From Cyanidioschyzon merolae (Eukaryota): DNA of 64,000 nucleotides. The notes under the pieces were generated by a model. That model made no database searches. It saw nothing but the letters and a program-made list of their open reading frames with translations, and was not told the origin of the DNA. Shown here one piece after another: positions 5,420 through 60,300 of the stretch. Numbering within the stretch: position 1 is the stretch's first letter; every line of letters starts with the position of its first letter. The position numbers and the translations under genes were made by a program. The stretch lies in NCBI GenBank assembly GCA_000091205.1, contig AP006500.2. One strand, given 5' to 3'.

Positions 5420-6130
5420 AACAGATTCAAACGCCATGAAGCATTCTGCGTCGAGAGCACAGAAACGAAATGCTACCTAGCAACGAGATCAGAATTTCTT
5501 TCCGTCTCTACGGTTGGCATTGAAAGGGGGAATGGTTTTCCGTATTTTCGAAAGTTTACATTTTTTAGGCAGAAGATCCAGCGAGCTGGACGGGTCTGCC
5601 AGGCCAGTGCTTCATGTGCCTCTGCTGGGACAGGTGCGGTGTCGAGACCTGAGCAACTCGTCCGCAACGCAGTTCTTTCCGGATTTCGGAGCTGGTAGAA
5701 TGTGTCTGGGCGCTGCCCTGATTGCGATAGTCTGCTAGAATATCGCTTCGCGCTGCCGCAGGAATCAGGTCCGGCTGCGCAGATTGCTGGCTCCCAGTAT
5801 GATCATGAATCCCAGTCCTGTGACTAGTGAACCACACCTCGATCCGACGCTCTCTGTTGTATGGTAAATATGCTCTGTCTTCATCTCACATCTGCAACGT
5901 CGCTGCAAGGACTATGGCAGGTGCAGCAAGGCGGGTATGCGGCGCACTATAGAACATACAACACGACCAGTAAATCCGAGATCAAGTCTAGGAAAATAAA
6001 CTTGAAGGTAAGGTGCAACATCACTGACGCTTTCTCGTTTACCATTATCCATCCCGCAAACTGGAATCCCGTATCAACGGAAACGTTTTGTCAAACAAAA
6101 CAATTGAGGTCGTCTTGCCGTCGCTGATTC
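5420..6130 (+). repeat. Partial copy of the Fanzor-unit 5' module (spacer plus R2), no adjacent intact Fanzor ORF
   Basis: 5420-5700 aligns with 26640-26930 (agaaacgag.atg...aatttctttcc..tctacggt.ggc...ttcgaaagtt.ac...gcttcatg). 5700-6130 aligns with R2 at 26930-27350 and with the reverse complement of 57040-57560 (tag.atatcgcttcgcgc.gccgcag...ggtatggtaaa...tagaaca...cccatcccgc...ggaaacg.t.tgtca). Confidence 0.5.
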
Positions 6131-6286: not shown

Positions 6287-7378
<1,092 letters not shown>

Positions 7379-10884: not shown

Positions 10885-12130
10885 CGAATGCCTTCCAAGC
10901 GCCAAACGCTGTATAGGCGGTGTTTAGGAGTGGCGAGCGGTGCGCCGCCCGCAACTGACTCTGCGTCTGCCCAACAACGTGCAGACGCCTCCTAGTCTTT
11001 CTAGACCGGCCACCTATGAATGGGTTCAACTTCTTCCGGTATTATTCGACCTTGAGAGGTTCCTTCACAGGGTAAGTTCGCGTCAGCTCTGCGGGTCTCT
11101 TCTGCATCACCGCATATCTCCTTCTATTGATAGCAACGTGAAGGCCTCGATGCACAAACTCCATGCATACATCACCGCTGGTTGAATTCATCAGTGCAAG
11201 GATTCCTCGACGGCGTGCCCTGTGTGCCACTACAGTCTCGGTATCGCCCGTCGGGCAAACATCTTTTCCTGACCATCTCGCCTCTTCTTGTTCCTCGTAT
11301 CACTTGCTCTTCTTCGCGCGAAGAATCGGCGAGGAGTTTTTCCGTTTTTTTTCCGGCAGCCGGCGATGCCAGCTCTCTAGGATCCCCAATTTGCGTATTG
11401 AAATTTTTCCCTTACATTTTTTCTTCTTCGAATGAGCGCACGTCGAACGCATCTGCTATGAACCACGAAAGAGCATTGAATGTCAAACACCAGGAAGTAA
11501 AACACATTCGAGGTGAAAGACGTGAACAGGTTGCATAGAGGGCGCTGGGCGCAACACCCGTGCATGAGTCGCACAACTGTACAATCGTGTATGTTTAGGA
11601 ACTATTATGTTCTACGTGCTAGGCACCGCCGCCGTCGCCAGTGTGCGCATGCCGCAACGCATACAATACCTCCGCGGGGTATGACGCTCTCGAGCAGCGC
11701 AATGCCTATCGTCGGTGCTCGCAGTGGACGCTTTCGACTGAAATGCGGCGCATCCTACGAGGGCCTGAATTCGTTTCCGCATAGGCGTATCGATCCGAGT
11801 CTACAGCGAGTCTAGCTTCTCTTCCAGGAGCGGTAGGTCGCTGGACAATGCACTCTCGACGCTGATCATGCGTGGCTCTGGTGAAAAGGTGTATGCGACC
11901 TGGGAGCCTGCCTCAGAGGGAACGGGCGATGTTCCCACTGAATTTTCTTCATCAGGATGCTGTGGACGCAGAGGAGCACGGTCTGCTTCGCAATGCTTCT
12001 GCTGGGCTCACCAGCACGAGTCACATCTTCGAGAGGGTGCTCAGTGTGCACCAGTGCCGCCCAGCTCAAACAATTGAGTTGCTCGCTATGATTTCACGGG
12101 TTCTGGGGATGTAGCCGGTTGCGGATAGCT
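10885..12130 (-). mobile_element. Internally deleted (non-autonomous) Fanzor-family element with its right end (RE), a C-terminal coding remnant, an N-terminal remnant, and degenerate spacer and R2
   Basis: 10885-11045 matches the conserved 3' non-coding region of copies A and B (gtgcagacgcctcc.agtcttt..gaccggccacc). 11045-11295, minus strand, encodes a remnant ...ETVVAHRARRRGILALMNSTSGDVCMEFVHRGLHVAINRRRYAV... homologous to the copy-A C-terminus, with RuvC-III degraded (RDFNAA to RGLHVA). 11295-11560 matches the N-terminal/NLS region of copy B 57950-58150. 11560-12100 is weaker homology to the spacer and R2. Confidence 0.55.
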
Positions 12131-24270: not shown

Positions 24271-24600
24271 CTACGAGTGCTGCGCAGAGTCAGCGGATCT
24301 GACGGGAACGCCAGGAAACTCTCGCTTGAGATGTTTCCATTCGGGCCGATCCGTGCTTTTCGACTCCGCCATATCGTGCGCAACGAGCAGATAGATGCCG
24401 TACGGAACCAAGACTCCAAAGAGCAACGCGGTACGAATGTTCCGCGGGGTGAAACGGAACCGCTCCTCTAGAGTCTCCCGTCCAGCAACCCAGGCTTCCA
24501 CGTAAGGATTCTTCTTCACTTGCATAGCACCCATTCTTGGCCGATGTCTGCTTGAAAACGCGACTCTGAGCTTATCAAGAGCAAGAATAACCTCGGACAA
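24271..24600 (-). CDS. Small single-TM protein resembling NADH dehydrogenase [ubiquinone] 1 beta subcomplex subunit 4 (NDUFB4/B15)
   Basis: ...MGAMQVKKNPYVEAWVAGRETLEERFRFTPRNIRTALLFGVLVPYGIYLLVAHDM... resembles NDUFB4 (NPAL.RWAYART...F.PTPKNSLMGALCGFGPL.FIYYIIK). The likely start is an internal ATG (MGAMQ), not the alternative-start codon used by the ORF track. Confidence 0.4.
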   Translation of the reverse strand: MSEVILALDKLRVAFSSRHRPRMGAMQVKKNPYVEAWVAGRETLEERFRFTPRNIRTALLFGVLVPYGIYLLVAHDMAESKSTDRPEWKHLKREFPGVPVRSADSAQHS

Positions 24601-24614
24601 ATCGGGTACACGAA

Positions 24615-27350
24615 CGTCTTACAAGATAAACGCTGCTGCGGCCAGAAGTGTACAGTAGTGGCGAGAAACGCGCCCTAGACAAGACCTCTCCAAGTGACGT
24701 GCAGACGCCTCCCAGACTTTTTGGACCGGCCACCAACTACTGATTCCATTTTTTTCTCATATTAGTCCACTTTGAGAGGTTCTCCCACAAAATTCTCTCG
24801 TGTTCAGCTCTGGAGGTCTCGTCTCCAACACCGCACATCTCCTTATATTGACAGCGGCATTAAAGTCTCTGTTCACGAATTCCATACGTTTCTTGCCATC
24901 ATTGGTTGTACTTACTAATGCAAGTATTCCTCGAACTTTCGCTCCCCTTTCCATTCGCTCTACCGTCAGCGCCCCGTACGTTTTCATATCCTCAGGGATC
25001 CGCTGGCACTTTTCCATCTCCACTCTCTGAAGTGTATATCCCAACTCATGGTGTTTATAGAATGTTCGAAACTTATCTTTTGGTATCGTAACGAAACGTC
25101 GTGCCCACTCCTTGTACGTTCTTGTCGTTGGGGCTGGGGTACACCCTTTTTGGGTCACCCAGCGCCCTGCTCCGTACGCTACTACCAGCCTGTGACTCTT
25201 GTCGTCCTCCAAGGCGCTCAACTCATTAAAGAACTTGGCGAATGCACGCTGCTTCCCACTGTATAGATTCATACGCAGACGAGCCCAGCGGGGCTTTGAA
25301 TATTCTTTCCACATCTCCTCGTCATGAGCAGCCTGGGTTTCCATGAATTCCCGAAAGGCTCGAAAAACCGCCCCGCGGTTTGTCACTTTGCTGAACTCCT
25401 CACGGATATCGAACTCCGGGCTGATTTCTTTCAATGGGCCATGAAGGACGCTGGAGTTGATAGTCACAAAATGTGACTTGACGTTGCATAACGGAACGAC
25501 ATTGAAGCGCTTCCCCATTAGGGCAGCCTTCCGTCTCTCCCACTCCTCATTTTCTTCCTCATCCCGCATCATCTCCGCCTTGCGTTTGAGTTCTCGGTCC
25601 AAAAACACGAAATACGGCAGGATGAGGCGAAAGTATCTTTCCTTATATTTTTTCAACTCTGATATCTTTTCTGCTGGATTAGCCAGCCCAAGTACAAGAC
25701 GATCCTCTTGAAAAAGCGCACGGATTACAGAAGCTTCACTCGTATTCTCGTTTGACACTTTCTTGTCGACAAATTCGATCTCATCTTCATGCTGGCCATT
25801 GTTTTTGATACCATTGATAATCGCCCATATTGCTTTGCGAGAGAAGACCGGGTACAGCGCAAACACGGCGCGTATCATGAAACGTTCGAGGTTCATCGTC
25901 GAATGGTTCTTCAGGTTCGTGATGTACTTCATCGCCCCGTATGTGCAAATACGCGAGTCACCCTTGTATCGAGTACCCTCGAGGCTGTAAAACGGACGTT
26001 TTTCGTGAAGAGCGTGAACCCGCTCATTTTCCCTGCGCGTTTCCCCTGTGCCAAACATCAGCTGGCGAGTAGAGGTCTTGTCGAAAAACTCGTCTGGAAT
26101 CTCGACTGTTTCCATGTGCGTCACGTTGCGATACATCTCCCTCGCCAAATGCATCAGTCCTGACGACGCCTTAACAATGCTCTTGGAGCACGAGTCGACA
26201 CGGTTGCGGATGGCGTCTCGCAACTTTTCCTTGTACGAATCCTTCACACGTTTAAGAAGACAGGCTTTCGCCACCATCTCGTCGTACTGTTGCCTTTCGT
26301 ACAGCTTGTTCGTCTTCTCTTGTACCTCTGGACTCTGTACTGATTGTCGTCTTTTTCTGGCAGCTGGCGACACTGCGCCTCCAGGATCCTCTACTTCCTT
26401 TTCTATACGTTTCCTTTTTGTATTTGTTTTTTTTTTCTTGAAAAAGAGCGCATTTTTGAACGCTTCTTCTACAAACCAGCAAAAATAACTTGACCCCAGT
26501 CTGTTGAGGGTTAAAACGCAATCGAACTGAAAACGATGCTTTGCTACGACTACAACGCAAACACATCTTTTTCGGTGGAGCAAAACTCTATATATCAGGA
26601 TCGCGTTTCCCTTCCACAGCGACATTTACGTCGTGCCTCGTGAGTGCCAGTTCTCGAGGTGCGCGTATCGACCGCGCCATGGATAAAAGAATAGAAACGA
26701 GTCATGAAGTAGCAGCTCGATAACAATTTCTTTCCCCTCTACGGTAGGCGTTAGATGGGGAAAGTTTCTAAGCTTTCGAAAGTTCACCTTAGAGGCGGAA
26801 AAGCGCGCGAGCGGGACGAATTTCCCAGTCTCATGCTTCATGCTCCCTCCAGTGCCCAGCGCTGTAGCGAGATATAAGCAGCTTGTCCGAAACGCAGTTT
26901 ATTCTTGGACTCTGAACGGGTAGCCTGCGTCTGGTCGTCGCGCTGGTCCCAGTGGACTCCTAGCGTATCGCTTCGCGCAGCCGCAGCCGGTAGGTCTGTC
27001 CGCGCCGTTTCCAGGTTCCCAGAATGATAACGAATCCCGACCCCGTATCAGATGAACCCTGCCTCGATCCGGCACCCTCTGTGGTATGGTAAAGCCTTTC
27101 TGTCTCCGTGCTGCATCCGTTCCAGCGGTAGAAGCGCCACGGCGAGTGCTCAAAGCAGGTAATCGGCGCATGATAGAACATTCGAAACGACCGGTGCACC
27201 CGAAAGAATACACCAGTAATGGAACTTGGAGGTAGTTGCCTTATGATGGACAATTACATGAATCCTAATACCCGTCCCGCAATCTGGTATCCCTTATCAA
27301 TGAAGACGTTTCTTCATCGAAAAAAGATCAGCGGTACTGCTTCGAGCAGC
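24615..27350 (-). mobile_element. Fanzor/TnpB-like element, copy A: RE, 622-aa ORF, ~380-bp conserved spacer and ~0.45-kb 5' module R2
   Basis: Conserved along its whole length with 57040-60300 in inverted orientation. The 3' non-coding block 24615-24757 matches 60095-60300 and 10885-11045. The spacer 26550-26930 and R2 26930-27350 match the reverse complement of 57040-57940. Confidence 0.6.
24757..26625 (-). CDS. Fanzor/TnpB-like (OrfB_IS605-type RuvC) protein, intact 622-aa ORF, copy A
   Basis: C-terminal RuvC-III signature ...KKRMEFVNRDFNAAVNIRRCAV... (RDxNAAxNI, about 24847-24885). N-terminal lysine-rich NLS-like tract FFKKKKTNTKRKRIEKE. Collinear with the frameshifted paralog at 57950-60095. 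Relative to that paralog it lacks, in frame, the ~130-aa segment carrying the RuvC-I-like strand. The true start is uncertain because the ORF extends ~75 nt past the conserved 5' boundary of the element. Confidence 0.7.
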   Translation of the reverse strand: MSLWKGNAILIYRVLLHRKRCVCVVVVAKHRFQFDCVLTLNRLGSSYFCWFVEEAFKNALFFKKKKTNTKRKRIEKEVEDPGGAVSPAARKRRQSVQSPEVQEKTNKLYERQQYDEMVAKACLLKRVKDSYKEKLRDAIRNRVDSCSKSIVKASSGLMHLAREMYRNVTHMETVEIPDEFFDKTSTRQLMFGTGETRRENERVHALHEKRPFYSLEGTRYKGDSRICTYGAMKYITNLKNHSTMNLERFMIRAVFALYPVFSRKAIWAIINGIKNNGQHEDEIEFVDKKVSNENTSEASVIRALFQEDRLVLGLANPAEKISELKKYKERYFRLILPYFVFLDRELKRKAEMMRDEEENEEWERRKAALMGKRFNVVPLCNVKSHFVTINSSVLHGPLKEISPEFDIREEFSKVTNRGAVFRAFREFMETQAAHDEEMWKEYSKPRWARLRMNLYSGKQRAFAKFFNELSALEDDKSHRLVVAYGAGRWVTQKGCTPAPTTRTYKEWARRFVTIPKDKFRTFYKHHELGYTLQRVEMEKCQRIPEDMKTYGALTVERMERGAKVRGILALVSTTNDGKKRMEFVNRDFNAAVNIRRCAVLETRPPELNTREFCGRTSQSGLI

Positions 27351-29348
27351 AGTGCACGGCGGCGGCGCCGCCGAATGCCTGCGATGCACTCGGATATCTT
27401 GCTCAGGACGATAGCCTGGCCTCAAGACAGAACAGGAAAACAGTGCACTAGACAGTGCTGTTTTGTTTTGTGCTGTGTTTTGGACGAGCCCCTCAGGGAA
27501 CAGCGAGGGAGTTGCCCGCACGCCATGGGTAGTCCGCAGCTGGGGCACGCCTGCGCACCACACCAGGGCCTTCATAAGGGAACTCGGCAGCGAACCACGG
27601 AAAAGAGGCACATTGCTCCTGCCCAATTAGGACAGTTTGACACTGAGAGCGAGGTCGCTTTCTCGGGATATGGTAATGCTGCAGTGGTCAACCGTGGAAC
27701 CCACCCGCGAAGTTTTTCAGCGCGTACCAGCTTCGTCTGGTTTACTGAGCCCTGTGCTTTGACCAAAGTGCACGGCAAACACCCGTGCATAGGCATCCAG
27801 GAGAGTTCCTTCAGCGCTCCTGTTCTCTATCCGATCCATGGAGCTTCACGGATTCTTGTTCAGAGGCATTCCCCGCATCCGGTAAAGCGTGCGCTCCCGC
27901 GCTCGCGCTCTCGCTCCTGGAAAGCCTCGCTGTTCGAGCGTTTCTTCGGCCGGAAACGGTCATCGCGCCAAACTTGGCCCCACTTGATCAAAGAACAAGC
28001 ACCAACGGGGACAGTACCAGCTTCAGGTGCCTCATTCGCACAGAATGGAGCGGACACCACAGTTATTCCGCGAGCACGCGCTCGACATTCCCGTCACGAA
28101 CCGACAAGGGTAGCGTCGCCGACTCCCAGTAGTCGTGACATCACAGATGTTGACCGAAGCAACGCGGAAACTTGCATCGCGATACGCCATGTACACAAGG
28201 TTTTTCCCGACTCACATGCACCAGGAGGACAATTTTACGCCCTTTGTGATATTTTGCTCGATATCGAGGACGGCTCGCTAGTGGCTTTGGTTGGCCCCAG
28301 CGGTAGCGGCAAGTCGACACTGCTTCGTTGTATTGCGGGGCTTGAGAATCCGACCTCGGGGCGTATCTTCCTCCATGGGCGAGATACCGAGGAGATGAGT
28401 GTTCAGGAACGACGGATTGGCTTTGTATTCCAGCATTATGCATTGTGGAAGCACATGACCGTGTGGAAGAACATTGCATTTGGATTGGAGATTCGCAAGA
28501 CGCCTCGCTCAGAAATAGAACGGCGCGTCTTGGAGCTTCTGAAGCTCATGGGTCTTGAGGGACTCGGTGACCGCTACCCACATCAACTGAGCGGCGGACA
28601 GCGCCAACGGGTTGCGCTGGCTCGAGCCCTAGCTCCCGAACCGCGCGTCCTCCTCCTCGATGAGCCGTTTGGTGCGTTGGATACGCGAGTGCGGCGGAGT
28701 CTGCGTGCATGGCTTCGGCGCTTGCACGATGAGGTCGGCACAACGACGATCTTCGTGACGCATGATCAACAGGAGGCTTTAGAGATAGCCAGCTCCGTGG
28801 TGGTCATGAACAAGGGCCAGATCGAGCAGGTCGGCACACCGCTTGAGATCTATGAGCATCCAGCGTCGCCGTTTGTCATGAGCTTCATGGGCGATGTGAG
28901 CGTCGTGAGTCGTGATGCGCTCCCCGCAGAGCAGGCAAACGGGCGCACCTTCACGAATGCTACTCGAGCGCGCTCCGTGGAGACATCCAAAAAAGACTCC
29001 ATTTGGTCGGACCCCGAGCGTCCGCCGACAATACCGCGCGAGTCTGAGACAACGACCAATGTCCGTAAGAGCGATAACGCCGCCCAGTACTTGATGCTGC
29101 GTCCTCATGACGTTCACTTGCATCGCAGCCCCGATAGCACCACGGCTCCGGCTCGTGTTGTCGACGTGTTTTTCTTAGGTTGGAGTGTGCGTGTTGATGT
29201 CGAGCTCCAAGACGGCCAAATTCTTCAATCCATCATGCTCACAACGCGCTACAAAGAGCTGGGCGATTTGTATCCCGGCGACCTCGTGCATGTTAAGTTC
29301 TTCGGGGAACGCTCCTTCGAGGTGGACGAGGCCGAGTATAACATCTGA
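27219..29348 (+). CDS. CysA-type sulfate/thiosulfate ABC transporter ATP-binding protein with long N-terminal extension
   Basis: C-terminal ~400 aa: Walker [11 protein letters not shown]-loop, signature [15 protein letters not shown], Walker [13 protein letters not shown]-loop FVTHDQQEA, CysA/ModC-like C-terminal regulatory domain (...[13 protein letters not shown]...). The first ~330 aa are low-complexity. The first ~40 aa are encoded inside repeat R2, so the N-terminus may be over-extended. Confidence 0.75.
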
Positions 29349-57039: not shown

Positions 57040-60000
57040 AGCTACTATCCTGCATCGGAACGAAGGACGCTCACCCGCGGTAGTGTCGCGCTTCTGATCC
57101 GCGCAGGCGCGTAAGCCGGCAGGAGTCGTTGCTGCATCGAGTTTTTTTCGATGACAGAGCGTTTCCATTGACCATGAATCCCCAATAGCGGGATGGGTAC
57201 TACGATTCATGTAATTCTCCATCATGACGCAACCTATCTCCAAGTTCCATTACCCATATTTCCTCTCAGGTATACTGGTCTTTTCCTTTGTTCTATCGTA
57301 TGCCAAGTGCCTGCAGTGAGCACCCACCGCAGCGCCTAAACCGCTTGTGCGGATGCTACACGGAGACAGAGTAGCTTTGTCATACCACTGAGGGCGTCGG
57401 CTCGAGGAATGCTACACCTGACACGGGATCAGGGCTACTTATCATTCTGGGAGTCTGGAAGCTGCGCAGGCAGGCGTACTGCCTGCGGCAGCGCAGAGCG
57501 ATATTCTTCGAGGACACCACGACCAGCGCGACGCCCAGACGCAGCATACCGCTCTGAGTCCCAGAATAAACTGCATTGCGGACGAGTTGCTCAGATCTCT
57601 CTGCATGACCAGGCTCCGAGAGGTCTATGAAGCACGAGCCTGGGAGAATCGTCCGACTCGCGGGACATTCCGCCCAGAAGGTAAACTTTCGTCAATATGG
57701 AAATCTTTGCTCCCCATGAATTTTTATCATTGACAGGGAAGGCAATTGTTATCTCGCTGCCAGTCAGTAGTGAGTCTCTGCTCTTCGTTCTATAGAGTAC
57801 AGTCGATAGGCGCACCCAGGAGATCTGCCAGGCACGAGGTACGACGTGGATATCGCCATTGAAGAGAAACGCGATCCTGATCATTAGCATGTTGTATACC
57901 GTACAAGGTGTATTTGCGTTGAAGTCGTAGCAACGTTTAGTCTTCAGTTCAGTTGTGTTCCAACCCCAAAGCAAGTATATACGAGCGATTTTTCGTGGTT
58001 TATAGCAGAAGCGTTCAAAGTGTGTTCTTTTTCGAAAATAAAAAAGGAAAGTTCTGGACGAAGAAGTGGAGGATCCTGGAGGCACGGTGTCGCCAGGTGG
58101 CGAAAAGAACGAAAAATAGTGCCGAGCAAAGATGAACAGGAGAAGAAGAAGAAGAAGCGAGAGCCAGACCTCAACGGCTGCAAGAAAGGCGACAGCATGA
58201 CGAGATGATAGTGAACGCCTGCCTTCTTGGATGTATCAAGGATCCGTACGAGCAGAAGATGCGAGAGACCACCAGAAGCCGTGTCGATTCCTACTCCAGG
58301 AGCGTGCGTAACACTTCTTTTTGGACTGAAGCATACGGTGAAGGAGATATACGATGACCTTACCGACACGAAAACAGTCGAGGTTCCGGAAGCGTTTTTT
58401 TTAACAAGACCCTCAGCCGCCACTTGATGCTTGGCACAGGGGGACGTCGAGGGAAAATGAGCGCATGTGCGTCCTCCATGAAAAATACCCCTACTAGGGT
58501 CTCAAAGGTACTCGTTACAGGGGTGACTCGCGTATTTTCGAATACAGGGCAAAAAAGTATCTCACGAACCTGAACAACCATATGATCATGAAGCTCGAAC
58601 GTTTCATGACACGCTCCATCGTTGCGCGCTACCCGGGCCTCTCTCGCAAAGGGATACGGGCCATCATCAATGGCGTCAGGAACGATAGTAAGAATGAACA
58701 GGAGATCGAATTCCTCGACGAGAAGACATCACACAGGAGAACGAATGAAGCTTCTGCAATCCGTACGGCAATTCAAGAGCACCGTCCGGTCTCGGAGCTG
58801 GTCAATCCAGCAGGAAATGTATCAGGTATGGAAAAAGAAAAGCAAAGATGTTATCCCCTAATCCTGCGCTATTTCGTGTGTTTGGACCGCGAACTCGATC
58901 CCAAGGCCAATATGGAGCTGGGTGTGGAACAAAATGTAGAGTCAGAGAAACGGAAGGGTATCCTAACGGGTAAGCGCTTTAGCGTTGTTGCGTTATGCAT
59001 CACCAAGTTCCATTTTGTAACAATCGACTCCAGAGTCCTCAACGGCATCATGAAGGAGGTCTGTCTGGAGTTCGATGTAAGGAAGATAGAGTTCACCAGT
59101 GAAAACCGGGAGACGTACTGGAAGAATATCTTCAATTTCAAACGTCTCAATACGTGCAAGCAAAAGGTATTCACTGGCATCATCGAAACCGATGGAGTAG
59201 CCATGTGTGTACACTCTCGGCGCTTGAAGGCAGATCGTCCAGTTCCGTCCTCGACTGCGCCCGTGGCGAAGCATGAAGAAAACAAGGAGGCTGGCCTTAC
59301 AACGCAGGAGGTACAGGAGAACGATTTTGTTGTTGGCACGGACCCTGGGAACACGAATATCGTAACCATCGCAGTACCCAAGCGTGCGGAAGATGATATC
59401 GACGGCAACTTACGTCAGAAGGACATCCGTCTTTGAAAGCTCACGACAGCTACATCTTACCGAGAATCAGGAAAACTGAATGCAAGGAAAAGAAATGAGA
59501 CGTGGAATGCAGGAGTGAAAGAGCACAAGGCAGCGATCAGCCAGGTGACGAGCCGAGGAGCGGACTTTGAAGCTTTTCGAGAGTTCATGAAAGTCCGCGC
59601 TGCTCTTGACGAGCCGCTGTCGAAAGAATCTACAAAGCCCCGGTGGGCTCGTCTGCTTAGAATCTTGTACTTTGGGAAGCAGCACGCATTTGCCAACTTC
59701 TTCAATGAGTTGAGCGCTCTCAAAGAGGACAAAATTCAGAGACTCGTGGTGGTATACGGAGCAGGGCATTGGATGACACGGAAAGGTAGCACACCAGCTC
59801 CATCGACACGAGCGTATAAGGAGTGCACACTGTGCTTCGTCATGATGTCGATAGATGGGTTCCGAACGTCGTATACATCCACCATGAGCTAGGGTGTGTA
59901 CTTGAGAGTGTCGAGATGGAAAAGTGCCAGCAGAGCACTGAGGATGTAGCAAACTACGGAGCGCTGACAGAGCACCTAACGGCATGGAGGGTGCGAGTTC

Positions 60001-60300
60001 GAGGTCTACTTCCGTTGGTGAGTACAACCAATGCCAAGAAACATATGAAATTCGTGAACCGAGACTTCAATGCCGCCAACAGTATAAGCAGATAGGCGGT
60101 GCTGGAGAAGAGGCCCCCAGAGTTGACCAGAGCCAACTTTCTGGGGCAACCTCTGCAGATGGCGCTGTACGAGAAGAAGCTGAAGCCAGTAGTAAATGGC
60201 CGGTCCAAAAACCCTGGGAGAATTCTGCACGCTGGCGTATATACATCAACGCTATCGGCTTGATGTGTGTGCGTTCGTTTGCTCGTTTTGCTGGCGGGAT
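57040..60300 (+). mobile_element. Fanzor/TnpB-like element, copy B: R2, spacer, full-length but disrupted ORF and RE
   Basis: 57040-57560 is R2 in reverse complement relative to 26930-27350. 57560-57940 is the spacer, the reverse complement of 26550-26930. 57950-60095 is coding. 60095-60300 is the conserved 3' block (…ccagag.tga.c…aacctct…cagtag…tggccggtccaaaaa.cctgggag…tctgcac…). Confidence 0.6.
57950..60095 (+). pseudogene. Fanzor/TnpB-like gene, copy B; retains RuvC-I-like and RuvC-III motifs; disrupted by stop and frameshifts
   Basis: Frame pieces 58582-59436, 59437-59892 and 59823-60095. RuvC-I-like ...[19 protein letters not shown]... at 59333-59356. In-frame TGA at 59434-59436. Frameshift near 59870. 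RuvC-III ...KKHMKFVNRDFNAANSI.... The N-terminal NLS-like region 57950-58210 (…QEKKKKKRE…) is itself split across two frames. About 60% amino-acid identity to copy A over alignable parts, estimated by eye. Confidence 0.65.

What the first reader, a model, noticed from the sequence alone, without database searches (positions are those of the whole stretch)
24757..26625. The intact copy lacks the RuvC-I segment; the copy retaining RuvC-I is a pseudogene
Aligning the two paralogs shows copy A jumps in frame from ...EFDIREEFSKVTNRG... to ...AVFRAFREFMETQAAHDE.... Copy B has ~130 aa between the equivalent points (…[22 protein letters not shown]…[38 protein letters not shown]…TSRGADFEAFREFMKV…). That segment includes the only RuvC-I-like G.D.G..N strand. 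Copy A is therefore an open, selectively maintained-looking ORF that may be catalytically dead. It could be a domesticated or regulatory Fanzor derivative, or a guide-RNA-binding protein without nuclease activity. Alternatively its RuvC-I lies somewhere I have not recognised. Copy B, which has the motif, carries a TGA at 59434-59436, a frameshift near 59870 and N-terminal frameshifts.
Basis: seen in the sequence. Interest (0 to 1): 0.75.

Follow-up and report, generated by a model that had tools for sequence, protein, structure and literature searches.

The report
Decaying, internally deleted Fanzor1 transposon copy

Summary
Copy A (24757-26625, minus strand) lacks 447 nt (149 codons) that copy B has at about 59077-59529. 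The missing piece holds the only RuvC-I motif (GTDPGNTN). Copy B is a multiply disrupted pseudogene.

The window is C. merolae 10D. Both copies belong to CMe-1A, a Fanzor1 family of about 150 old copies described by Bao and Jurka in 2013. A family profile hits Parasitella Fanzor1 (E=1.8e-14). A full-length relative's model matches Spizellomyces Fanzor1 (E=4.6e-17, TM 0.60-0.70).

Copy A is nuclease-dead. Family HMM positions 317-461 are absent. They cover two strands I take to be WED, RuvC strands beta1-3 and the following helices. The relocated catalytic Glu is Lys, and no alternative RuvC-I exists.

Selective maintenance is not supported:
- An (A)10 run puts the family-frame ATG out of frame.
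- A 1-nt insertion scrambles the C-terminus.
- In strain alleles at the same syntenic locus the A-run has 8, 9 or 10 bases, two of five carry a TAG at codon 134, and the Glu codon is Lys or Met.
- Allelic polymorphism fits neutrality.
- Conserved-site substitutions are about 5-fold enriched.
- The deletion junction occurs only at this locus.
- No gene with this product is on record.

Verdict: an ordinary transposon relic of low interest.

The parts
24757..26625 (-). Copy A: longest ORF (622 aa) of an internally deleted CMe-1A Fanzor1 relic. Residues 95-407 and 409-617 match the family HMM.
24645..27325 (-). Approximate full extent of the copy A element: 5' TE-N2-like module, ORF and conserved 3' non-coding tail.
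25399..25404 (-). Deletion junction (codons R408|E409). 447 nt, about 145 family HMM positions, are missing here.
25072..25074 (-). Codon K518 (AAG) at the family's relocated catalytic glutamate (VDEFRTS reads KDKFRTF in A). Strain alleles carry K or M here.
24865..24867 (-). Retained RuvC-III aspartate D587 (NRDFNAAVNI).
26427..26436 (-). (A)10 homopolymer, which is (A)8 or (A)9 in strain alleles. In 10D it puts the family-frame ATG (26451-26453) out of frame.
26224..26226 (-). Codon K134 (AAG), which is TAG (premature stop) in alleles L002 and L003.
24804..24804 (-). Extra A that frameshifts the last 15 codons away from the family C-terminus. It is present in 10D, L002 and L003 and absent in L001 and L004.
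26626..27325 (-). 5' non-coding module of copy A, shared with copy B and with a solo copy. It corresponds to TE-N2_CMe, the 5' 635 bp of CMe-1A.
   Evidence: PMC3627910
24600..24756 (-). Conserved 3' non-coding tail, the candidate omega-RNA scaffold region of the element.
   Evidence: structure support weak
57143..60231 (+). Copy B: full-length CMe-1A element of about 3.1 kb, a Fanzor1 pseudogene with several stops and frameshifts.
59077..59529 (+). Segment of copy B that copy A lacks. By fold position it holds two strands taken to be WED, the RuvC-I DPG strand, beta2-3 and the following helices.
59335..59358 (+). RuvC-I motif GTDPGNTN of copy B (Asp codon 59341-59343).
59434..59436 (+). In-frame TGA in copy B.
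10976..11293 (-). 3' fragment of a third CMe-1A copy (RuvC-III region and tail).
5478..6088 (-). Solo TE-N2_CMe-like module.

Best explanation
Copy A is a fixed, single-locus relic of CMe-1A, the known Fanzor1-carrying transposon family of Cyanidioschyzon merolae.

Its ancestor encoded an omega-RNA-guided RuvC nuclease of the Fanzor1 type. The catalytic residues are Asp in DPG, a relocated Glu in VDEFRTS, and Asp in RDxNAA.

An in-frame 447-nt deletion removed two strands I take to be WED, the first three strands of the RNase-H-like RuvC core and the helices after them. The relocated Glu then mutated to Lys. The product therefore cannot cleave DNA and probably cannot form the RuvC fold.

Since then the locus has drifted:
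- Homopolymer slippage displaced the start codon.
- A 1-nt insertion scrambled the C-terminus.
- A nonsense allele segregates among strains.
- Short ectopic gene-conversion tracts from paralogous copies are the best reading of the clustered allelic differences in its 3' third.

The long open frame reflects recent inactivation plus ascertainment: one open copy was picked out of about 150.

Shown: homology, the deletion, the residue losses, the allelic disruptions and single-locus occurrence. Inferred: loss of fold, neutrality since the deletion, and gene conversion as the source of the clustered differences.
For: **Organism and family**
- Flanking proteins match C. merolae 10D records exactly.
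- Bao and Jurka 2013 describe CMe-1A: about 150 copies, about 80% identical to a 3-kb consensus, 5' 635 bp equal to TE-N2_CMe, and no TIRs.
- The window shows exactly this architecture.

**Fanzor1 membership**
- The family profile hits PpFz1 9cf0 at E=1.8e-14 and aligns DPGR, IDEFRTS and NRD..A..N.
- The AlphaFold model of P0019 (pLDDT 79.8) matches SpuFz 9cez/8gkh at E about 1e-16, TM 0.60-0.70.

**Loss of function**
- HMM positions 317-461 are missing from A.
- The gap maps to P0019 residues 350-483, which include strands E376-395, E417-422 (D422), E427-434 and E449-455.
- E593 of P0019 corresponds to K518 in A.
- The copy A model is poor (pLDDT 59, pTM 0.43) and matches SpuFz only at TM 0.30.

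**Decay**
- Six metagenome contigs from the same syntenic locus (L001-L004, L010, L011) are 97.3-99.1% identical where aligned to the window and all carry the deletion.
- The poly-A run is 8, 9 or 10 bases long.
- Two of five alleles carry TAG at codon 134.
- The C-terminal frameshift is polymorphic.
- Polymorphism is 14 synonymous to 29 nonsynonymous (binomial p=0.06 against neutrality). Without the conversion-like tracts it is 7 to 18 (p=0.29).
- Copy A deviates at 10 of 60 family-conserved columns, against 31 of 868 for the other members (Fisher p=1.4e-4).
- No gene with this product is on record for three possible starts.
Against: - The frame from M158 to codon 606 is open in every allele examined.
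- A-versus-L001 dN/dS is 0.47, and the parsimony omega for the A branch is 0.45. That is no higher than for paralogs that keep RuvC-I (0.38-0.44).
- However, the obvious pseudogene B gives only 0.56 by the same method, so the measure is dominated by history before inactivation.
- Expression was not tested.
Confidence: 0.86

Rival explanations
1. Domesticated nuclease-dead Fanzor derivative. A shorter protein, for example the 465-aa frame from M158, would keep the helical REC-like half and the C-terminal remnant. It would be retained by the host or by the transposon family as an RNA- or DNA-binding regulator, for instance a competitor for omega-RNA.
For: - The locus is fixed and syntenic in all sampled strains.
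- The M158-to-codon-606 frame is open in all alleles.
- The poly-A frameshifts and the codon-134 stop lie upstream of M158.
- Overall allelic dN/dS is below 1 (0.47).
- The conserved 3' tail is retained.
Against: - Diversity is so low that no disruptive hit in 449 codons is expected by chance.
- Polymorphism does not differ significantly from neutral.
- The low dN/dS comes mostly from conversion-like tracts imported from paralogs.
- There are excess replacements at family-invariant sites, including in the retained parts.
- The C-terminus is frameshift-polymorphic.
- Three of the five RuvC core strands are gone and the model is poorly folded.
- No gene with this product is on record.
Confidence: 0.07
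2. Non-autonomous deletion derivative that still transposes. It would use Fanzor and a transposase supplied in trans by intact copies, so its ORF would be irrelevant but the element would be alive.
For: - The 5' TE-N2-like module and the 3' conserved tail are both present.
- TE-N2_CMe shows that short derivatives of this family did amplify.
Against: - An exact-match scan of the metagenome contig collection finds the deletion junction only at this one syntenic locus.
- Only one protein cluster carries the deletion.
- Family copies are about 20% diverged, so the family is old.
Confidence: 0.05
3. Assembly or sequencing artefact: the deletion or the open frame is not real.
For: Homopolymer lengths such as (A)10 are error-prone.
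Against: - The same junction is found in six independently assembled metagenome contigs from several samples.
- A single-base error cannot produce a 447-nt deletion.
Confidence: 0.01

Closest known systems
CMe-1A Fanzor1 element family of Cyanidioschyzon merolae, with its short relative TE-N2_CMe (Bao & Jurka 2013, Mob DNA 4:12, PMC3627910)
   Same: - The organism is the same.
- The full element is about 3 kb (copy B is 3.1 kb).
- The 5' module of about 635 bp is also found alone (5478-6088).
- No TIRs were noticed.
- The copies are strongly diverged (72-80% identity).
- The encoded protein is a Fanzor1.
   Different: Copy A is an individual member with a 447-nt internal deletion and a lost catalytic Glu. 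The paper does not describe individual copies. It notes only that some copies still encode intact proteins.
Structurally characterised Fanzor1 nucleases: SpuFz1 (PDB 8gkh, 9cez), PpFz1 (9cf0) and GtFz1 (9cer)
   Same: - The full-length family member P0019 shares the fold (Foldseek E=4.6e-17, TM 0.60-0.70).
- The DPG, (I/V)DEFRTS and RD.(N)AA motifs align.
- The catalytic Glu is relocated, as reported for Fanzors (PMC10530073).
   Different: - Sequence identity is about 13-15%.
- The C. merolae subfamily lacks a canonical C4 zinc ribbon.
- Copy A lacks RuvC strands beta1-3 and the Glu, and its own model matches SpuFz only weakly (TM 0.30).
Nuclease-dead TnpB derivatives co-opted as RNA-guided repressors (TldR; from my own knowledge of the literature, not checked here)
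   Different: - As I recall, TldR proteins keep a folded RuvC-like core and a guide RNA, are conserved across species, and sit next to regulated genes.
- Here the core of the fold is deleted.
- The locus is polymorphic for stops and frameshifts.
- Nothing indicates conservation beyond closely related strains.

Membership tests
Fanzor1 (eukaryotic TnpB-like RNA-guided nuclease) | Sequence and fold homology to characterised Fanzor1 proteins | tested here: met
   - The family profile A1 hits PpFz1 9cf0 at E=1.8e-14.
- The P0019 model matches SpuFz at E=4.6e-17, TM 0.60-0.70.
- Copy A matches the family HMM over residues 95-407 and 409-617 (E about 1e-114 and 8e-91).
Fanzor1 (eukaryotic TnpB-like RNA-guided nuclease) | RuvC-I aspartate. 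This is the first D of the Bao-Jurka motif D-X(125,275)-[TS][TS]-..-RD, DPG in this family. | tested here: not met
   - In copy A, HMM positions 317-461 are deleted, and they include the DPG strand.
- No alternative hydrophobic-strand D.G motif exists in A.
- Copy B has the motif (GTDPGNTN) but is a pseudogene.
Fanzor1 (eukaryotic TnpB-like RNA-guided nuclease) | Relocated RuvC-II glutamate (alternative Glu downstream of the canonical position; PMC10530073) | tested here: not met
   - The family motif VDEFRTS has a nearly invariant Glu (E593 of P0019).
- Copy A has K518, strain alleles have K or M, and copy B has G.
Fanzor1 (eukaryotic TnpB-like RNA-guided nuclease) | RuvC-III aspartate (RD motif) | tested here: met
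   Copy A has NRDFNAAVNI with D587. Copy B has NRDFNAA at 60057-60077.
Fanzor1 (eukaryotic TnpB-like RNA-guided nuclease) | C4 zinc ribbon between [TS][TS] and RD | tested here: inconclusive
   - Distant family members keep H/H/C...C.
- The C. merolae subfamily keeps at most two Cys.
- Copy A keeps only HH, and its [TS][TS] reads TF in 10D.
- Metal binding was not assessed.
Fanzor1 (eukaryotic TnpB-like RNA-guided nuclease) | Omega-RNA encoded at the 3' end of the element | tested here: inconclusive
   - About 110-170 nt downstream of the stop are conserved among paralogs.
- RNAalifold gives plausible helices, but the covariation term is unfavourable (+1.49) with only 7 sequences.
- Rfam finds nothing. 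There are no RNA data.
CMe-1A transposable element family (Bao & Jurka 2013) | C. merolae host, about 3-kb unit, 5' module of about 635 bp shared with TE-N2_CMe, old diverged copies, encodes Fanzor1 | tested here: met
   - The host is confirmed.
- Copy B is 3.1 kb, and a 5' module of about 640 bp is shared by A, B and a solo copy.
- The copies are 72-75% identical.
- The paper's description is quoted.
- The Repbase consensus itself was not available for alignment.
Domesticated / exapted nuclease-dead TnpB-like gene | Purifying selection and an intact frame across lineages after loss of catalysis | tested here: not met
   - A nonsense allele segregates, and both the poly-A run and the C-terminal frameshift are polymorphic.
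- Polymorphism does not differ from neutral.
- Substitutions at conserved sites are about 5-fold enriched.
Domesticated / exapted nuclease-dead TnpB-like gene | Expression as a stable protein | not testable with these tools
   No expression data were available. No gene with this product is on record for three candidate starts.

The most novel reading that the evidence does not exclude
A 465-aa product starting at M158 would keep the helical REC-like half of Fanzor1 plus a RuvC-II/III remnant. It would be a host-retained or transposon-retained nuclease-dead factor, for example an omega-RNA sponge or a repressor of CMe-1A, kept at a fixed locus in C. merolae populations. The upstream stop and the poly-A frameshifts would then lie in its 5' leader.
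Probability: 0.05. Interest if true: 0.5.

Novelty: already known. Interest (0 to 1): 0.1.

Why it matters
It matters little. The case shows how one Fanzor1 copy dies: an in-frame deletion of the RuvC core, loss of the relocated Glu, then homopolymer slippage, a nonsense allele and what look like ectopic conversion tracts.

It is also a caution that a long open frame in an old, high-copy transposon family is not evidence of selection.

If the minority reading were true, it would be a eukaryotic example of a nuclease-dead Fanzor co-opted for another role. That would interest the TnpB/Fanzor field, but nothing here points that way.

Tried and rejected
- **Single-sequence searches.** Pfam scans of copy A, the copy B ORFs and six relatives gave nothing meaningful. 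The precomputed PF26935/DUF8286 hits are weak. Single-sequence phmmer of copy A against the PDB found nothing. Only the family profile found Fanzor1.\n- **RNA searches.** Rfam at gathering threshold and ARAGORN found nothing in the window.\n- **dN/dS.** The pairwise value (0.47) and the parsimony branch values (A 0.45, paralogs 0.38-0.44, pseudogene B 0.56) could not tell selection from neutrality. Branch values are dominated by history before inactivation. Allelic differences are concentrated in conversion-like tracts.\n- **Omega-RNA structure.** RNAalifold on seven 3' tails gave helices without convincing covariation, so no omega-RNA structure is claimed.\n- **Annotation check.** Exact-product look-ups for three possible starts of copy A (M1, M117, M158) found nothing on record.\n- **Amplified deletion derivative.** Considered and rejected, because the junction occurs only at this locus.\n- **RuvC-I elsewhere in copy A.** Considered and rejected.\n- **Ideas not pursued.** A 6-nt island (ATCCGT) at the junction matches copy B at 59425-59430. 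This might mean two adjacent deletions, or microhomology at GGAGTTC. It was not resolved.
Full report
**Observation**

The ORF at 24757-26625 (minus strand, 622 aa) is real. Self-BLASTN shows that it lies in a repeat, window 24698-27325. That repeat matches 57143-60231 on the plus strand at 72-75% identity. A break in the match places copy A positions 25376-25394 against copy B positions 59108 and 59537.

A pairwise DNA alignment puts the gap at 447 nt, or 149 codons, in frame, between A residues R408 and E409. It also shows that copy B changes frame several times and has internal stops. The TGA at 59434-59436 is confirmed. The B-only segment contains GTDPGNTN at 59335-59358.

**Organism and element family**

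Flanking ORFs are exact matches to Cyanidioschyzon merolae 10D proteins: KRR1 is BAM82625, glycerol-3-phosphate dehydrogenase is BAM82641, and serine dehydratase is BAM82624. The other long ORFs in the window are ordinary intron-less eukaryotic genes.

Bao and Jurka (2013, PMC3627910) described a Fanzor1 family, CMe-1A, in this genome. It has about 150 copies, each about 80% identical to a consensus of about 3 kb. It has no TIRs. Its 5' 635 bp equals a separate short element, TE-N2_CMe, which has about 70 copies.

The window shows exactly this layout:
- Copy B is 3.1 kb.
- A 5' non-coding module of about 640 bp is shared by A (26626-27325), by B, and by a solo copy at 5478-6088.
- A third copy survives as a 3' fragment at about 10976-11293.

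**Family membership**

Single-sequence Pfam and PDB searches were empty. The homologue search returned 74 relatives, almost all from metagenomes, including full-length proteins of 600-750 aa.

Their alignment shows three conserved catalytic positions:
- a nearly invariant Asp in (V/I)G.DPG;
- a nearly invariant Glu in VDEFRT(S/T);
- an invariant Asp in FVNRD.NAA.NI.

The profile hits Parasitella parasitica Fanzor1 (PDB 9cf0) at E=1.8e-14 and aligns all three motifs.

An AlphaFold model of the full-length relative P0019 (pLDDT 79.8, pTM 0.73) matches Spizellomyces Fanzor1 (9cez, 8gkh) at E about 1e-16 with TM 0.60-0.70. Parasitella and Guillardia Fanzors come next, and Cas12 proteins trail far behind.

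The Glu position fits the relocated RuvC-II glutamate reported for Fanzors (PMC10530073). At the canonical RuvC-II position the family has VVAYG.

**What copy A has lost**

A family HMM built without copy A matches it in two pieces: HMM 19-316 to A 95-407, and HMM 462-663 to A 409-617. HMM positions 317-461 are therefore absent.

In P0019 the gap corresponds to residues 350-483. In the model these residues comprise:
- short helices;
- two strands, E376-383 and E387-395, which I take to be WED from their position in the fold;
- RuvC strand beta1 ending at D422;
- strands beta2 (E427-434) and beta3 (E449-455);
- most of the three helices that follow, H456-486 (the gap ends at residue 483).

Three of the five core strands of the RNase-H-like fold are thus gone.

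The relocated Glu is Lys (K518). The RuvC-III Asp (D587) remains. The only D.G tripeptide in A lies in the disordered N-terminal tail.

The model of copy A is poor (pLDDT 59, pTM 0.43), worst in the region after the junction. It matches SpuFz only at E=1.9e-3 with TM 0.30.

Copy A is therefore nuclease-dead beyond reasonable doubt.

**Is the ORF maintained by selection?**

Six metagenome contigs cover the same syntenic locus, next to the divergently transcribed ABC-transporter gene. Five of them, L001-L004 and L010, are 97.3-99.1% identical to the window. L011 comes from the same contig as L004. All carry the same deletion. Five of these alleles (the window, L001, L002, L003, L004) were compared base by base. 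They show continuing decay:

1. **Start codon.** The A-run at 26427-36 has 10 bases in 10D, 8 in L001 and 9 in L002-L004. The ATG at 26451-26453 is in frame only in L001, whose N-terminus (MRSFSRKK...) matches the family frame. In 10D that ATG is out of frame. The frame stays open only by running on into upstream sequence as far as an unrelated ATG at 26625.
2. **Premature stop.** Codon 134 is TAG in L002 and L003. Several other members of the 90% protein cluster start only at M158.
3. **C-terminus.** An extra A at 24804 frameshifts the last 15 codons in 10D, L002 and L003. L001 and L004 keep the family-like C-terminus.
4. **Catalytic Glu.** The Glu codon is Lys or Met among alleles, and the neighbouring residue also varies.
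5. **Polymorphism.** In the in-frame core, 14 variable codons are synonymous and 29 nonsynonymous, including the stop (p=0.06 against the neutral expectation). Excluding two dense tracts the counts are 7 and 18 (p=0.29).
6. **Conserved sites.** Copy A deviates at 10 of 60 columns that are at least 95% conserved in the family, against 31 of 868 for the other members (Fisher p=1.4e-4).
7. **No gene on record.** No gene with this product is on record for starts at M1, M117 or M158. The 90% cluster that holds the strain alleles has no NCBI member.

**Caveats**

Pairwise dN/dS between A and L001 is 0.47. A parsimony branch estimate gives 0.45 for A, against 0.38-0.44 for paralogs that keep RuvC-I and 0.56 for the obvious pseudogene B. 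These values mostly record the time when the lineage was an active element, so they cannot settle the question.

Allelic differences are concentrated in the 3' third of the relic. There they form 40-70-bp tracts at 25186-25228, 24927-24973 and 24686-24750, where 17-28% of positions differ. That density is typical of divergence between paralogs.

The adjacent ABC gene differs at only 2 of 1824 positions between 10D and L004. The relic outside the tracts differs at about 17 of 1540 positions (Fisher p=1e-4). The best reading is ectopic gene conversion from other CMe-1A copies. Such conversion would import a selection-like signature.

The frame from M158 to codon 606 is open in all alleles. At about 1-2% diversity this is expected by chance. 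I leave about 5-7% for a retained, shorter, nuclease-dead product.

**Other readings**

The deletion junction occurs only at this locus in an exact-match scan of the metagenome contig collection. The deletion derivative has therefore not amplified as a non-autonomous element. The same junction in independent assemblies rules out an artefact.

**Mechanism of the family**

This part is inferred from homology. An intact CMe-1A Fanzor1 would bind an omega-RNA transcribed from the 3' end of the element and cut DNA with its single RuvC site.

About 110-170 nt after the stop codon are conserved among paralogs, roughly as well as the coding sequence. RNAalifold proposes helices, but covariation is unconvincing with seven sequences. 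Rfam has no match.

**Verdict**

The suggestion of a selectively maintained or domesticated gene is not supported.

Copy A is a recently inactivated, single-locus, decaying member of a transposon family described in 2013. It is already known in kind and of low interest.

Noticed in passing
window 5478-6088: A solo copy of the ~640-bp 5' module (TE-N2_CMe-like) lies just upstream of KRR1 (6323-7378). All three such modules in the window (5478-6088, 26626-27325, 57143-~57840) lie next to an ORF on the opposite strand that reads away from them: KRR1, the ABC transporter and G3P dehydrogenase.
   Followed up: partly
window 10976-11293 (-): A 3' fragment of a third CMe-1A copy, covering the RuvC-III region and the conserved tail. 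It is about 70% identical to copy A.
   Followed up: partly
window 24686-24750, 24927-24973, 25186-25228, compared with L001-L004: Allelic differences between strains cluster in 40-70-bp tracts where 17-28% of positions differ, which is divergence at paralog level. The adjacent ABC-transporter gene differs at 2 of 1824 sites. This looks like ectopic gene conversion among CMe-1A copies.
   Followed up: partly
window 24600-24756 (-), and the paralog tails in L005, L006, L008, L009: The non-coding tail after the stop codon is conserved across paralogs (GGTGGCCGGTC.A.AAAG...GGAGGCGTCTGCACG...CGCCACTACTGTACAC). Helices are possible (GGUGGC/GCCAC., GGCGUC/GGCGC), making this a candidate omega-RNA scaffold. 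Covariation support is weak.
   Followed up: partly
window 27219-29348 (+): The longest ORF of the CysA-like ABC ATPase begins inside the 5' module of the transposon. Metagenome gene calls start 102 codons later (607 aa), so the true start is probably downstream of 27219.
   Followed up: no
P0002 (L005:2501-4759), residues ~370-500: The linker before RuvC-I contains about four tandem acidic repeats of ~25 aa (..VD..KHEE.K.A.P.TQ.V.DND..V). P0003 has two and distant relatives have none. This explains why the 'missing' segment measures 134-224 aa depending on the reference.
   Followed up: no
L006:2087-4261, L009:2087-4249 and L009:1050-1956: The paralog next to an SMC gene is split into a 136-aa and a ~585-aa ORF, so it is also disrupted. 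L009 carries a second, inverted partial copy immediately upstream.
   Followed up: no
window 25387-25416 (-), compared with 59425-59430: The junction reads GGAGTTCGAT-ATCCGT-GAGGAGTTC. The GGAGTTC heptamer is repeated on both sides. The ATCCGT island matches copy B at 59425-59430. This hints at microhomology-mediated deletion or at two adjacent deletions.
   Followed up: no
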